This document shows positions 1,978 to 55,500 of a DNA stretch of 64,000 nt, in pieces. Both the position numbers and the translations under genes were made by a program. The stretch's first letter is position 1. Each line of letters opens with the position of its first letter. Source of the stretch: Eledone cirrhosa (taxonomy: Eukaryota); assembly GCA_964016885.1 (NCBI GenBank), contig OZ024741.1, forward strand, positions 71,114,001 to 71,178,000, written 5' to 3'. The notes under the pieces were generated by a model. That model was given only the letters and a program-made list of their open reading frames with translations. It was not told where the DNA came from and searched no databases.

Positions 1978-2033
1978 ATCCTGTTACTCTTGAGTTTCGC
2001 CTGTTTGTTTACAAGGTCATCAGTCATATGGAT
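1978..2033 (-). ncRNA. Degenerate hammerhead ribozyme, probably an old PLE-type relic
   Basis: Minus strand reads CTGATGA-ccttgtaaacaaacaggc-GAAA-ctcaagag-TA. Stem III is CTC/GAG with a GUA site; stem I is imperfect. Confidence 0.5.
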
Positions 2034-2064
2034 GGATAGATAAGTGTAATAAGCATGTATAATA

Positions 2065-2455
2065 ATTGTTTCTACTTTAGGCACAAGGCCAGCAATTACC
2101 CAGTCTGTTACTGGTACCTTATTTTATCAACCCTGTAAGGATGAAAGGCAAAGTTAACCTCAGCAGGATTTGAACTCAGACCATAAAGGGCCGTAACTCT
2201 TTGCTGACGCTCTATCGATACTGTAGGCACAAGGCTAGCAATTTGAAGGGGTGGGGCAATTCGATTAAATCGACCCCAGTGCATCACTGGTGCTTTATTT
2301 ATTGACCATAAGGATAAAAGGCAAAACTAATTTTGGCGGGAGGCACAAGTTCAGCAATTTTAGGGGTGGAGAAAGTTGATTAAATCTATCCTAGCATTTC
2401 ATTGGTATTTTGATATTTCGTCCGACCCTCTACCGATACTGCCAATCCACTGCTC
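2065..2455 (-). mobile_element. Nested/adjacent SINE copies, same family
   Basis: Three 'aggcacaagg' tails; reverse complement of the B-box (ggatttgaactc) and of the head (ctaccgatactgccaatccac). Confidence 0.8.
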
Positions 2456-3034
2456 TCTGTGGATTGTATAATAATAATAATGTCTGCTGTTTTATACTTT
2501 AATCATTTTAACGATAAAAAAAATCTTTATTTATATTTTTTTTATTTTGTTACTTTCCATTTTTTCTTTTTGATTTCACTTTTTAAAATATTTTTTGTTG
2601 ATTTTTATTTGTTTTGTTTTTTCAGCAAGGGGAAGGGGGCATTAATGTTGTTCCCCCAAAATATAAAAGCAAATTGTCAAAGATAGCAAAGGAAAAGGTT
2701 TCAGAAACACTATTAAGGCAACAACAAAGAGAACTGAGTTACAAGAGACAGGAAATCTCTTTTGTTTCTTTGTCAAAGAATAAATTCTGCCTACTGATGA
2801 TGACAATAATGATGACAATACTGATGACAATAATTATGATGATCATGATGACAATGATTTCATAGTGAGAAGCAATGTTTAACAGGAGGATTGGATGTAT
2901 AGCTAATTGCTTAGTTGGTTAGTTGAATAATTGTTAACTTGTATCCATCTCCAGGACCAGTATAATTTCAAGGTGGAGATACTCAAGCATAAAGCCCCAA
3001 TCTTCCCACTCACATACTTCTATTCACTAGCTAT

Positions 3035-50367: not shown

Positions 50368-50555
50368 TGTTTGGAAAGAGAGATATATTTTAACTTTAAT
50401 TATATCTCATAAAATAATACAACTGGCTTTCCACATAATACATATAGTTAGGAACCCAAACACTTAAATTGGGTTTATACTAACATATAACCTAATGTTT
50501 GTTGAGTGAGATGGTTACCAGTCAGAGCTTAGCTTTAAGCTGTCTCTCTATTAAA
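50368..50555 (+). mobile_element. Short island homologous to the sequence 3' of the 21965 hammerhead
   Basis: ggaaagagagat...aaaataatacaac...cccaaacact.aaattggg...cctaatgtttgttgagtgagatgg...gtcagagc shared with 22084-22270. Confidence 0.8.
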
Positions 50556-52900
50556 TATATATATATATACATACATACATACATAAAAATATACATACAT
50601 ATATATATATATATATATACATACATACATACATACATACATACATACATACATACATACATATATATATACATACATACATACATACATACATATATAT
50701 ATACTTATATATATATATATATATACATATATATATATACATATATATACATATATATATATATACTTATATATATATATATATATACATATATATATAT
50801 ATACATATATATATATATACATATATATATATATATATATATATATATATATATATATATATATATATATACATATATATATATATATACATATATATAT
50901 ATATATATACATATATATATATACATATATATATATATATATATATATACATATATATATATATATATATATATATACATATATATATATATACATATAT
51001 ATATATATATATACATATATATATATATACATATATATATATACATATATATATATACATATATATATATACATATATATATATACATATATATATATAC
51101 ATATATATATATACATATATATACATATATATATATACATATATATATATATATATATATACATATATATATATACATATATATATATACATATATATAT
51201 ATACATATATATATATATATATATATATACATATATATATATATATATACATATATATATATATATACACACATACATATACATACATATATATATATAT
51301 ACACATACATACATATATATATATATATATACATATATATATATATATATTGATATATACATACATATATATATATATACATACATATATATATATATAC
51401 ATACATATACATACATATATATATATATATATACATATATATATATATATATATACATACATATATATACATATATATATATATATATATACATATATAT
51501 ATATATATATATATACATACATACATATATATATACATACATATATATATACATACATATATATATATACATATATATATATATATACATATATATATAT
51601 ATATATATACATACATAGATATATACATATACATACATACATATATAAATACATACATATATATATATATATACATACATACATATATATATATACATAC
51701 ATATATATATATACATACATATATATATATACATACATATATATATATATACATACATATATATATACATACATATATATAAATACATACATATATATAT
51801 ATATATACATACATACATATATATAAATACATAAATACATACATATATATATATATATATATATATAATTATATATATATATACATCAATACATACATAC
51901 ATACATATATATATATATACATACATACATACATATATATATATACATACATATATATACATACATATATATATATACATACATATATATATATATATAC
52001 ATACATATATATACATACATACATATATATACATACATACATATATATATATATACATACATACATATATATATACATACATACATATATATATATACAT
52101 ACATATATATATATATATATACATACATATATATATATACATACATATATATATATATATACATACATACATATATATATACATACATATATATATATAC
52201 ATACATACATATATATATATACATACATACATATATATATATATACATAAATACATACATATATATATAACATACATACATATATATATATACATACATA
52301 CATATATATATATACATACATACATATATATATATACATACATACATATATATATATATATACATAAATACATACATATATATATATATACATAAATACA
52401 TACATATATATATATACATACATACATATATATATATATACATAAATACATACATATATATATACATAAATACATACATATATATATATACATACATACA
52501 TATATATATATACATACATACATATATATATATATATATACATAAATATATATATATATATACATACATATATATATATACATACATACATATATATATA
52601 TATATACATACATATATATATATACATACATACATATATATATATACATACATATATATACATACATACATATATATACATACATACATATATATACATA
52701 CATACATATACATATATATACATACATATATATATATATACATACATATATATATATATATACATACATATATATATATACATACATATATATATATATA
52801 CATACATATATATATATATATACATACATATATATATATACATGCATATATATATATACATACATATATATATATATATATACATACATATATATATATG

Positions 52901-55500
52901 TATCGAGAATCTAATTGTAATACGTGACGTATTCTATTCTATAGCGATTAGGTCTTCAAAATGTTTATTATAAACATACAGAATATTTTCGAATATTCTA
53001 TGTCTATATTCACATATATATCGCTATTTCAGAGCATTTATTCCAATTTCTAATTTCTGCCGGACCGGCAACCGCTCTTTCAAACCAGTTCCTGTACACA
53101 GCTAAGTATTCTATAAGTCTCTAGCTGTGTCATTCTCGATAAAAGCACTGGATATGTAGTCCTGATGATTTCTAACAAGAATGAAACGCGTAGATTACTT
53201 CCCTTGCTTTTATCGAGAATCTAATTGTAATACGTGACGTATTCTATTCTATAGCGATTAGGTCTTCAAAATGTTTATTATAAACATACAGAATATTTTC
53301 GAATATTCTATGTCTATATTCACATATATATCGCTATTTCAGAGCATTTATTCCAATTTCTAATTTCTGCCGGACCGGCAACCGCTCTTTCAAACCAGTT
53401 CCTGTACACAGCTAAGTATTCTATAAGTCTCTAGCTGTGTCATTCTCGATAAAAGCACTGGATATGTAGTCCTGATGATTTCTAACAAGAATGAAACGCG
53501 TAGATTACTTCCCTTGCTTTTATCGAGAATCTAATTGTAATACGTGACGTATTCTATTCTATAGCGATTAGGTCTTCAAAATGTTTATTATAAACATACA
53601 GAATATTTTCGAATATTCTATGTCTATATTCACATATATATCGCTATTTCAGAGCATTTATTCCAATTTCTAATTTCTGCCGGACCGGCAACCGCTCTTT
53701 CAAACCAGTTCCTGTACACAGCTAAGTATTCTATAAGTCTCTAGCTGTGTCATTCTCGATAAAAGCACTGGATATGTAGTCCTGATGATTTCTAACAAGA
53801 ATGAAACGCGTAGATTACTTCCCTTGCTTTTATCGAGAATCTAATTGTAATACGTGACGTATTCTATTCTATAGCGATTAGGTCTTCAAAATGTTTATTA
53901 TAAACATACAGAATATTTTCGAATATTCTATGTCTATATTCACATATATATCGCTATTTCAGAGCATTTATTCCAATTTCTAATTTCTGCCGGACCGGCA
54001 ACCGCTCTTTCAAACCAGTTCCTGTACACAGCTAAGTATTCTATAAGTCTCTAGCTGTGTCATTCTCGATAAAAGCACTGGATATGTAGTCCTGATGATT
54101 TCTAACAAGAATGAAACGCGTAGATTACTTCCCTTGCTTTTATCGAGAATCTAATTGTAATACGTGACGTATTCTATTCTATAGCGATTAGGTCTTCAAA
54201 ATGTTTATTATAAACATACAGAATATTTTCGAATATTCTATGTCTATATTCACATATATATCGCTATTTCAGAGCATTTATTCCAATTTCTAATTTCTGC
54301 CGGACCGGCAACCGCTCTTTCAAACCAGTTCCTGTACACAGCTAAATATTCTATAAGTCTCTAGCTGTGTCATTCTCGATAAAAGCACTGGATATGTAGT
54401 CCTGATGATTTCTAACAAGAATGAAACGCGTAGATTACTTCCCTTGCTTTTATCGAGAATCTAATTGTAATACGTGACGTATTCTATTCTATAGCGATTA
54501 GGTCTTCAAAATGTTTATTATAAACATACAGAATATTTTCGAATATTCTATGTCTATATTCACATATATATCGCTATTTCAGAGCATTTATTCCAATTTC
54601 TAATTTCTGCCGGACCGGCAACCGCTCTTTCAAACCAGTTCCTGTACACAGCTAAGTATTCTATAAGTCTCTAGCTGTGTCATTCTCGATAAAAGCACTG
54701 GATATGTAGTCCTGATGATTTCTAACAAGAATGAAACGCGTAGATTACTTCCCTTGCTTTTATCGAGAATCTAATTGTAATACGTGACGTATTCTATTCT
54801 ATAGCGATTAGGTCTTCAAAATGTTTATTATAAACATACAGAATATTTTCGAATATTCTATGTCTATATTCACATATATATCGCTATTTCAGAGCATTTA
54901 TTCCAATTTCTAATTTCTGCCGGACCGGCAACCGCTCTTTCAAACCAGTTCCTGTACACAGCTAAGTATTCTATAAGTCTCTAGCTGTGTCATTCTCGAT
55001 AAAAGCACTGGATATGTAGTCCTGATGATTTCTAACAAGAATGAAACGCGTAGATTACTTCCCTTGCTTTTATCGAGAATCAAATTGTAATACGTGACGT
55101 ATTCTATTCTATAGCGATTAGGTCTTCAAAATGTTTATTATAAACATACAGAATATTTTCGAATATTCTATGTCTATATTCACATATATATCGCTATTTC
55201 AGAGCATTTATTCCAATTTCTAATTTCTGCCGGACCGGCAACCGCTCTTTCAAACCAGTTCCTGTACACAGCTAAGTATTCTATAAGTCTCTAGCTGTGT
55301 CATTCTCGATAAAAGCACTGGATATGTAGTCCTGATGATTTCTAACAAGAATGAAACGCGTAGATTACTTCCCTTGCTTTTATCGAGAATCTAATTGTAA
55401 TACGTGACGTATTCTATTCTATAGCGATTAGGTCTTCAAAATGTTTATTATAAACATACAGAATATTTTCGAATATTCTATGTCTATATTCACATATATA
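52901..55500 (+). repeat. 310-bp tandem array (8 full units + ~120 bp), one hammerhead per full unit; retrozyme-like
   Basis: Units start at 52901, 53211, 53521, 53831, 54141, 54451, 54761, 55071 and 55381; only two substitutions noticed (near 54346 and 55082). Confidence 0.97.
53156..53198 (+). ncRNA. Minimal type I hammerhead, first of 8 (others at +310 n, last at 55326-55368)
   Basis: gtagtc-CTGATGA-t-ttct-aaca-agaa-t-GAAA-cgcg-TA-gattac; predicted cleavage after GUA at 53192. Confidence 0.9.

What the first reader, a model, noticed from the sequence alone, without database searches (positions are those of the whole stretch)
1978..55368. Seventeen hammerhead-like cores from about seven sequence families in 64 kb
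Seen: CTGANGA-stem II-GAAA-short stem III-UH cores at 1978(-), 18693(-), 21391(+), 21965(+), 38769(-), 41422(+), 41841(+), 46028(-), 46378(+) and eight in the 310-bp array. Stem III is a different palindrome in each well-preserved family (CG, CGATCG, CTAG, TATATA, CGCG). Established: minimal HHRs with palindromic stem III mark Penelope-like pLTRs and are thought to cleave as dimers. Inference: a diverse set of ribozyme-bearing non-autonomous retroelements shares the (TA)n niche, and family-specific palindromes could restrict dimerisation to like copies.
Basis: partly seen in the sequence, partly recalled or inferred. Interest (0 to 1): 0.72.

Follow-up and report, generated by a model that had tools for sequence, protein, structure and literature searches.

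The report
Hammerhead repeats inserted by Penelope machinery
The 17 predicted self-cutting RNA motifs are real but of known kinds, belonging to Penelope-type jumping genes and their small non-coding passengers; the 310-base passenger lands in TA repeats as two back-to-back arms with one long and one short fixed end, so it is likely copied by a Penelope enzyme, possibly from a circular RNA.

Summary
All 17 cores exist. Sixteen fit a type I hammerhead descriptor (about 0.05 expected in shuffles); the 17th is a decayed copy of a real family. The seven families have 177 to 28,978 exact-core copies in this 3.0-Gb animal genome, which averages 4.8 descriptor hits per 64 kb, so the window is rich but not exceptional. 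Three families (F2, F4, F6) are ends of autonomous Penelope-like elements (PLEs). Three are non-coding tandem units (310, about 420 and 767 bp), two of them classic retrozymes. The palindrome-barcode idea is weak: palindromes are shared between families, and two families have imperfect ones. The useful result lies in the 310-bp family. It inserts into (TA)n as outward-pointing two-armed arrays: 63 of 63 pairs have one long and one short end, the PLE 'tail' signature. Both arms share one haplotype in 33 of 33 loci, and arm starts ignore the ribozyme cut site. This supports PLE mobilisation of retrozymes, plausibly from RNA circles. I did not find this in print, but this scan noted the same signature in other families and genomes. 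Cleavage and expression are untested.

The parts
1959..2027 (-). F1: decayed copy of a short hammerhead family (core 2023-1995; helix III CTC-AA-GAG here, mostly CTC-CA-GAG in the family; family helix I 6 bp)
   Evidence: (493 exact 22-mers, 0 in the control); fails the descriptor in this copy
18608..20826 (-). F2a: 5'-truncated Neptune/Nematis-like PLE: GIY-YIG endonuclease reading frame (20091-20810), low-complexity 3' region, minimal hammerhead (core 18725-18702, helix I 2 bp, bulged A, helix III CG), 3' end in (TA)n
   Evidence: (GIY-YIG E=0.0056, below cut-off); 5 of 25 family loci carry the same endonuclease upstream at 79-89% identity; 4,646 exact cores
20884..21512 (+). F2b: separate truncated copy of another F2 subfamily (about 76% to F2a), core 21395-21418, ends in (TA)n
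21538..22271 (+). F3: non-coding unit of about 767 bp with a hammerhead whose helix II domain is 96 nt (core 21969; GAAA 22072-22075; helix III CGATCG); fixed 3' end in (TA)n
   Evidence: 177 exact 18-mers; 767-bp tandem at L128/L129; no PLE protein hit in 25 loci
38729..38833 (-). F4: fragment of a PLE 3' end with a minimal hammerhead (core 38807-38779; helix III GAAC, not palindromic)
   Evidence: 9,314 exact cores; C-terminal GIY-YIG upstream in 7 of 25 loci
41370..41985 (+). F5: retrozyme-type tandem, 418-bp unit, canonical hammerheads at 41428 and 41846 (helix III CTAG); the second unit is cut off by a LINE fragment
   Evidence: (28,978 cores)
45978..46579 (.). F6: two-armed, 5'-truncated insertion of a Hydra-clade PLE end: left arm (-) 45978-46281 with the short end, right arm (+) 46275-46579 with a 97-nt longer end; cores 46076(-) and 46382(+), helix III TATATA; (TA)n on both sides
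   Evidence: 4,431 cores; RT and endonuclease between two copies at L101
52901..55501 (+). F7: 8.4 head-to-tail units of a 310-bp non-coding retrozyme (34% G+C), canonical hammerhead in each unit (helix III CGCG, predicted cut after unit base 292); one-armed here, ending at the short end in (TA)n
   Evidence: (4,626 exact 25-mers, 0 in the control)
53005..53048 (+). F7 tail region in the first unit: short 3' end (unit bases 105-121) and long 3' end (147-148); best-conserved stretch shared with a sister family
   Evidence: 1,186 short ends; 1,240 long ends

Best explanation
The window holds remnants of seven hammerhead-bearing retroelement families that share TA microsatellites, likely because Penelope-like enzymes insert them there; three are ends of protein-coding Penelope-like elements, and the 310-bp family is a non-coding retrozyme that is likely copied in trans by such an enzyme. 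Shown for F7: dispersed arrays point outward as two arms; each insertion has one long and one short fixed 3' end, 26-42 nt apart; the inner junction is variable and often has microhomology; both arms carry one haplotype. Inferred mechanism: a PLE RT-endonuclease binds the tail region of the RNA and cuts both strands of (TA)n; each DNA 3' end primes reverse transcription at one of two internal start sites; the two cDNAs are then joined at their far ends. Inferred with less certainty (about 0.55): the template is a monomer circle, made when neighbouring hammerheads in a multimeric transcript cleave as dimers through palindromic helix III and the monomer is ligated, so that each RT runs round it for up to many turns.
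For: F7 ends are 1,186 short and 1,240 long genome-wide. On C1 up to 222.5 Mb, 63 of 63 outward pairs within 20 kb are one long plus one short. All 63 were fetched; of 71 loci examined, 63 are simple two-armed, 4 have extra inversions, and 4 show one arm or are cut by a gap or by the fetch edge; 62 of 62 complete simple arrays are long plus short. The same two-end pattern appears in F6, whose parent encodes RT and endonuclease, and in F5 (ends near 246 and 302). Papers define this inverted-copy-plus-tail structure as specific to PLEs (PMC8557442) and trace the tail to two internal RT start sites, with both DNA strands cut and extended (PMC11167929). Arms share the majority haplotype in 33 of 33 loci, chance 0.15 each; 74 of 74 majority variants are in every full unit of both arms, and 85 of 95 minor variants are singletons. 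Only 1 of 134 arm starts is at the cleavage site, 3 expected. Arm lengths of 75-14,079 bp fit an exponential (KS p=0.17). One non-microsatellite site has a duplication of about 14 bp (L034). Helices covary: 92% of cells paired, 0 of 500 shuffles as high.
Against: No RNA evidence: cleavage, circles and expression are untested. The partner PLE of F7 was not found; BLAST of the unit over all fetched loci hit only a non-coding sister family. 68 of 194 listed ends had no partner within 20 kb, and the window's own array is one-armed. The longest array (47 units) carries 4 variants shared by scattered units, so it was reshaped at the DNA level after insertion, and 6 more shared variants occur in 4 other arrays. 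In vitro, the anole PLE used uncleaved RNA and did not need its hammerhead, so uncut multimers could be the template. F5 and F7 have U.U at the base of helix II, which may weaken cleavage. Covariation counts are not corrected for relatedness, and two of the five measures did not beat shuffles (67 and 409 of 500).
Confidence: 0.75

Rival explanations
1. PLE machinery inserts F7, but from long uncleaved transcripts of existing arrays, not from circles; the hammerhead is a passenger or acts elsewhere.
For: Explains the two ends, the scattered arm starts and the shared haplotypes if source arrays are homogeneous. Unprocessed RNA was the main substrate in vitro (PMC11167929). No RNA data here.
Against: 11 of 19 haplotypes are private to one locus yet fixed in every unit of both arms, which needs a one-unit bottleneck followed by re-expansion. 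Variants fixed in arrays fall at tolerated hammerhead positions (N7, loop II, fold-compatible stem changes): 9 of 20 lie in the hammerhead against 5 of 70 minor variants, Fisher p=0.0002, which suggests the fold matters for spread.
Confidence: 0.3
2. Short two-armed insertions were expanded later by DNA slippage or unequal exchange, the satellite route discussed in bioRxiv 10.64898/2026.07.22.740005.
For: The 47-unit array shows spread of variants among units; 10 minor variants are shared between units. Two earlier scan notes read other arrays this way.
Against: 85 of 95 minor variants are singletons, most shared ones are non-adjacent, length does not rise with variant density (Spearman -0.13, p=0.34), and arm lengths are smooth from under one unit upward. 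Arrays are young (0.0006 minor variants per base).
Confidence: 0.15
3. The second arm is made by fold-back: the first cDNA primes on itself and copies itself (self-priming, as proposed for rotifer PLEs in PMC3846280).
For: Would give identical haplotypes. Several junctions overlap by 15-48 nt at a hairpin near unit bases 61-78.
Against: A copied arm cannot be longer than its template, yet either arm type can be the longer one: long-end arm longer in 35 of 62 loci, short-end arm in 27; by more than one unit in 25 and 18.
Confidence: 0.12
4. Helix III palindromes evolved as family barcodes that keep dimer cleavage among like copies.
For: Cross-family helix III duplexes are predicted weak for the window's seven families; the F7 sister family has different, covarying long palindromes. 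All of the first 100 listed matches to a pattern with the two central bases left open have a self-complementary centre.
Against: F5 and a 466-bp family share CTAG with the same duplex energy and 3-4 bp of cross helix I. TATATA, CG and GAAC also recur. F1 and F4 are imperfect. Neighbours on one transcript are like copies anyway.
Confidence: 0.12

Closest known systems
Metazoan non-LTR retrozymes (Cervera and de la Pena 2020, PMC7229834, read parts 2-4 of 6 and passages; Li et al. 2026, bioRxiv 10.64898/2026.07.22.740005, read parts 1-3 of 5 and passages; review PMC7761336, passages)
   Same: F7 and F5: non-coding, low-G+C tandem units of 310 and 418-490 bp, each with a canonical type I hammerhead and a weak palindromic helix III; U.U at the base of helix II as in axolotl HHR_Amex2; co-occurrence with PLEs.
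   Different: Those papers propose PLE mobilisation from co-occurrence and sequence kinship. Their main texts do not describe inverted two-armed insertions or a tail ('inverted' 0 times in PMC7229834; only in a reference title in the preprint and the review). Supplements were not read. Circles and cleavage were shown there and are untested here.
Minimal hammerheads in PLE pseudo-LTRs (Cervera and de la Pena 2014, PMC4209133, read parts 1-2 of 4; Perreault et al. 2011, PMC3088659, passages)
   Same: F2, F4, F6 and probably F1: short helix I, long helix II, small or palindromic helix III, a bulged base after A9 in F2 and F4, many families per genome, close pairs on opposite strands; also a U3-A8 core variant (F7 sister family).
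   Different: Only new sequences. F3's 96-nt helix II domain is longer than the forms described in the parts I read.
EN+ Penelope-like elements: Hydra and Neptune/Nematis clades; tail and internal RT initiation (Craig et al. 2021, PMC8557442, passages and section 11; Frangieh et al. 2024, PMC11167929, parts 1-2 of 4; Arkhipova et al. 2013, PMC3846280, passages)
   Same: Inverted 5'-truncated copy, tail at one end, (TA)n targets. The F6 parent has the Hydra motifs RWK, DKT and CxCX5C. Non-autonomous multicopy head-to-tail PLE derivatives are known in Chlamydomonas (MRC1).
   Different: Tails here are about 22 (F3, one copy), 26-42 (F7), 56 (F5) and 97 nt (F6), against 30-40 described. The strict rule of one use of each start site per insertion is not stated in the parts read; in vitro either strand used either site.

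Membership tests
Type I hammerhead ribozyme | CUGANGA, GAAA and UH core closed by helices I, II and III | tested here: met
   16 of 17 window cores; the F1 copy is decayed, intact family copies pair
Type I hammerhead ribozyme | Compensatory changes in the helices | tested here: met
   42 distinct F5, F7 and related cores: 12 of 16 pairs change on both sides, 92% of cells paired, slid controls 30-48%. Not run for F1-F4 and F6; relatedness not corrected
Type I hammerhead ribozyme | Rfam hammerhead model at gathering score | tested here: not met
   0 hits; best is HH9 at 19.2 bits against 52. The models expect a longer helix III
Type I hammerhead ribozyme | Self-cleavage at the UH site | not testable with these tools
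   needs in vitro transcription
Non-LTR retrozyme (F7, F5) | Head-to-tail units of about 150-450 bp, each with a canonical type I hammerhead | tested here: met
   F7 310 bp; F5 418-490 bp; helix I with a 3-nt bulge, helix II of 4 positions plus a 6-nt loop
Non-LTR retrozyme (F7, F5) | No protein coding, no LTRs, G+C under 50% | tested here: met
   F7 longest stop-free frame 59 codons; G+C 34% (F7) and 38% (F5). PBS and PPT were not searched for
Non-LTR retrozyme (F7, F5) | Expressed as linear and circular monomer RNA | not testable with these tools
   no RNA holder listed
Non-LTR retrozyme (F7, F5) | Target-site duplication longer than 4 bp when visible | tested here: inconclusive
   about 14 bp at L034; masked by (TA)n elsewhere
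EN+ Penelope-like element (F2, F4, F6) | RT followed by a C-terminal GIY-YIG endonuclease between pseudo-LTRs | tested here: met
   F6: L101 has RT (YRDD) and endonuclease frames between two cores 4.1 kb apart, in several broken frames (GIY-YIG E=0.0007, below cut-off). For F2 and F4 only the endonuclease was seen
EN+ Penelope-like element: insertion signature | Inverted 5'-truncated copy with a tail at only one end | tested here: met
   F6 pairs; F7 62 of 62; F5 several loci
Hydra clade PLE (F6 parent) | RWK, DKT and CxCX5C motifs; (TA)n target | tested here: met
   RRMRWKAF, HADKTNN and CNCRNPESC, against the definition
Hydra clade PLE (F6 parent) | Placement in the RT tree | not tested
   no reference set was fetched
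Neptune/Nematis PLE (F2, F4 parents) | CX2-5CxxC linker before GIY-YIG | tested here: inconclusive
   CSRPRCNTC and CIDKKCIIC fit, but the motif does not separate the clades, and no RT was seen

The most novel reading that the evidence does not exclude
Each F7 array is the fossil of one reaction: a dimeric Penelope enzyme holds one circular ribozyme RNA, cuts both strands of (TA)n, and its two RT centres each take one of the two start sites and run round the circle. This would be genomic proof of rolling-circle, two-ended target-primed reverse transcription, and it would fix a one-site-per-strand rule for PLE integration in general.
Probability: 0.5. Interest if true: 0.72.

Novelty: new member of a known kind. 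Interest (0 to 1): 0.5.

Why it matters
How animal retrozymes move is an open question: PLEs are the suspected helpers, but published support is co-occurrence and sequence kinship. A young family with over 1,000 insertions, near-identical units and a strict long-plus-short end rule gives a direct insertion signature. It names a 26-42 nt cis-element to test and predicts what an in vitro PLE reaction on a circle should make. It also constrains the unsolved second-strand step of PLE integration. The density of hammerheads and their palindromes are ordinary for such genomes.

Tried and rejected
DNA search of G000 with the 310-bp unit returned nothing, not even the window itself; exact patterns were used instead. 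The whole-window Rfam E-value scan was swamped by microsatellite matches to miRNA models, and only 150 of 548 rows were shown. My first descriptor was too strict and found only F6. An exact F1 pattern hit only the window. Sequencing runs: no RNA holder listed. Laid contigs: one run shows many F7 variants, including the same A>G loop change and loose TA ends at unit bases 121 and 152; three runs hold a single 340-base contig at depth 10-15. I do not count these as independent support, since a tandem array and a circle assemble alike and a run may be the genome's own source. Rejected: 18725 and 21395 as one inverted insertion (76% identity). Rejected: 13 other CTGANGA sites, including 37395(-), as hammerheads; none passed the descriptor, and BLAST against fetched loci showed no conserved hammerhead family. 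No U3-A8 core was found in the window. A scrambled-order descriptor was not run. The partner PLE of F7 was not found. In one search the F1 helix I row used a mutated copy (0 bp); an intact copy gives 6 bp. Lunse et al. 2017, on dimer cleavage of PLE hammerheads, is not held; I saw only its title, and it may bear on the palindrome question. The supplement of PMC8557442 was listed but not read. Literature searches.
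Full report
Setting. The window is G000:C2:71114001-71178000 of a 3.0-Gb genome in 1,796 contigs. It is A+T-rich and full of (TA)n and (TACA)n. The organism was not established; I treat it as an animal from its repeat content.

1. Observation. All 17 cores are present. A descriptor asking for helices I, II and III around CUGANGA, GAAA and UH gives 14 hits against 0.05 in 100 shuffles of 1-kb blocks. A second descriptor gives the F6 pair. The 2023(-) copy has lost helices I and II but belongs to a family of at least 493 copies. 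Exact-pattern counts, each with 0 in the reversed-pattern control: F2 4,646, F3 177, F4 9,314, F5 28,978, F6 4,431, F7 4,626. A pattern with open stems for the F5/F7 type gives 53,469. Sixty evenly spaced 10-kb stretches hold 45 hits, 4.8 per 64 kb. The window is about three times the average, mostly because of one array. Rfam gives no gathering-level hit and a weak HH9 match.

2. What the families are. F2a lies downstream of a GIY-YIG frame with a CX4CxxC linker at 20091-20810(-), and 5 of 25 other F2 loci have the same endonuclease upstream. F2b is a separate insertion, 76% alike. F4 has a C-terminal endonuclease upstream in 7 of 25 loci. F6 is the pseudo-LTR of a PLE with RT and endonuclease in broken frames, with the RWK, DKT and CxCX5C motifs that define the Hydra clade. 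F3 is a 767-bp tandem unit with no PLE protein hit in 25 loci and a 96-nt helix II domain. F5 and F7 are non-coding tandem units with canonical hammerheads: 6-bp helix I, a 3-nt bulge, a distal stem, and a 6-nt loop II. On 42 distinct cores of this type, 92% of cells pair and 12 of 16 pairs change on both sides; 3 of 5 measures beat all 500 shuffles and 2 do not. Sampled copies of F1-F6 have (TA)6 within 400 nt downstream in 65-97% of cases, against 25% at random.

3. Palindromes. Clustering 249 distinct cores from all fetched loci gave 16 multi-copy clusters and 22 singletons (the loci are enriched for the families I searched). CTAG, TATATA, CG and GAAC recur across clusters or singletons. 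GAAC, CTCCAGAG, CCTCTGG, CCACTGG and CATTG are imperfect or non-palindromic. Predicted cross-family helix III duplexes are weak among the window's seven families, but helix I separates them too, and F5 and the 466-bp family are identical in helix III. Palindromic helix III and dimer cleavage are published. The simplest reading is that any self-complementary helix III serves dimer cleavage between neighbouring units, and that families drift apart.

4. The F7 insertion signature. The first 100 core hits on C1 fell into arrays of minus copies followed by plus copies. In ten such loci, 8 were two-armed with outer ends at unit base 121 or 147 running into (TA)n. Patterns for the two ends count 1,186 and 1,240 genome-wide. 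I paired the listed ends on C1 up to 222.5 Mb: 100 short and 94 long, with 6 long ends beyond that range dropped. All 63 outward pairs within 20 kb were one long plus one short, and 68 ends stayed unpaired. Same-type pairs would have been seen by the same method. All 63 were fetched. With 8 further loci, 63 of 71 are simple two-armed arrays, and 62 of 62 complete ones are mixed. One site outside a microsatellite has a duplication of about 14 bp and puts the short end at base 105, so the tail is 26-42 nt. Inner junctions are scattered over the unit: 1 of 134 lies at the cut site, and 42 of 67 overlap by 2 nt or more, a few of them inflated by complex loci. F6 in the window (ends +101 and +198) and F5 show the same two ends. 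A 70%-identical sister family keeps the tail region and both ends while its hammerhead has changed.

5. Mechanism. Craig et al. describe PLE insertions as a copy with an inverted 5'-truncated partner and a 30-40 bp tail at one end, with (TA)n bias. Frangieh et al. show that a PLE protein cuts and extends both target strands and starts RT at two internal sites that bound the tail. Priming from both ends of a break gives exactly a minus arm on the left and a plus arm on the right (inference). The mixed-end rule implies that each site is used once per event, which fits a protein dimer on one RNA (inference). Both arms share a haplotype in 33 of 33 loci with at least two full units per arm, among 19 haplotypes, and 74 of 74 majority variants are in every full unit. 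Private haplotypes fixed across up to 22 units point to a one-unit template, that is a circle (inference, about 0.55). Against this: no RNA data; the hammerhead was dispensable in vitro; the 47-unit array shows later DNA-level spread. Fold-back copying is disfavoured because either arm type can be the longer. Later expansion is disfavoured by singleton variants and by the lack of a link between length and age.

6. Comparison and novelty. F2, F4 and F6 are PLE ends with PLE-type hammerheads. F5 and F7 work like, and meet the sequence criteria of, non-LTR retrozymes; circles are untested. PLE mobilisation of retrozymes has been proposed. I did not find the two-armed tail signature for retrozymes in the main texts read or in six searches (with word checks); supplements and Lunse et al. 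2017 were not seen. I reached this reading before opening the scan's notes. Those notes report the same signature for other families in this genome and in others, and none for this sequence; they are unchecked and are not counted as support.

Verdict. Observation confirmed; interpretation partly supported; new members of known kinds, with a strong and testable insertion signature. Interest 0.5.

Noticed in passing
L104:640-1060, L179, L201, L221, L316, L151, L048, L076: A sister family of F7 (70% identical, unit of about 330 bp) with a U3-A8 hammerhead core (TTGATAA) in the copies where a core was scored (one related copy, L076, has the normal core), long covarying helix III palindromes, and the same two 3' ends. 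The tail region is the best-conserved part (86%).
   Followed up: partly
F7 arrays, unit bases 256-299: Variants fixed across whole arrays cluster at tolerated hammerhead positions (9 of 20), some on several haplotype backgrounds; the rest of the unit has few fixed variants. Selection or hypermutation is unresolved.
   Followed up: partly
window 40872-41330 (-): 152-codon acidic and lysine-rich open frame that looks like a host exon; if so, these elements may sit in introns of a minus-strand gene.
   Followed up: no
window 4366-5922, 17100-18575, 41985-42355, 56347-56726 (RTE-like by recall): Copies of one LINE RT frame with (GAT)n tails; several are interrupted by or joined to hammerhead elements or (TA)n. 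F5 is also joined to this LINE at L075.
   Followed up: no
window 58502-62281 (-): A LINE with an uninterrupted frame of about 1,150 codons (endonuclease, RT, C2H2 fingers by eye), flanked by short repeated ends.
   Followed up: no
window 29962-32857: 91-bp tandem array, 31 copies, 95% matches, CCA-rich; no hammerhead core.
   Followed up: no
L049, L055, L057, L074, L088, L089; 11 of 60 random stretches: Hydra-like PLE frames are very common and often nested next to other hammerhead elements in the same (TA)n.
   Followed up: partly
G000:C1:5738326-5752444: A 466-bp retrozyme family sharing the CTAG palindrome with F5; one array has about 30 units in one arm plus an inverted copy.
   Followed up: partly
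L208, L215, L238: Hammerhead families with a 3-bp helix III plus triloop that could fold as monomers.
   Followed up: no
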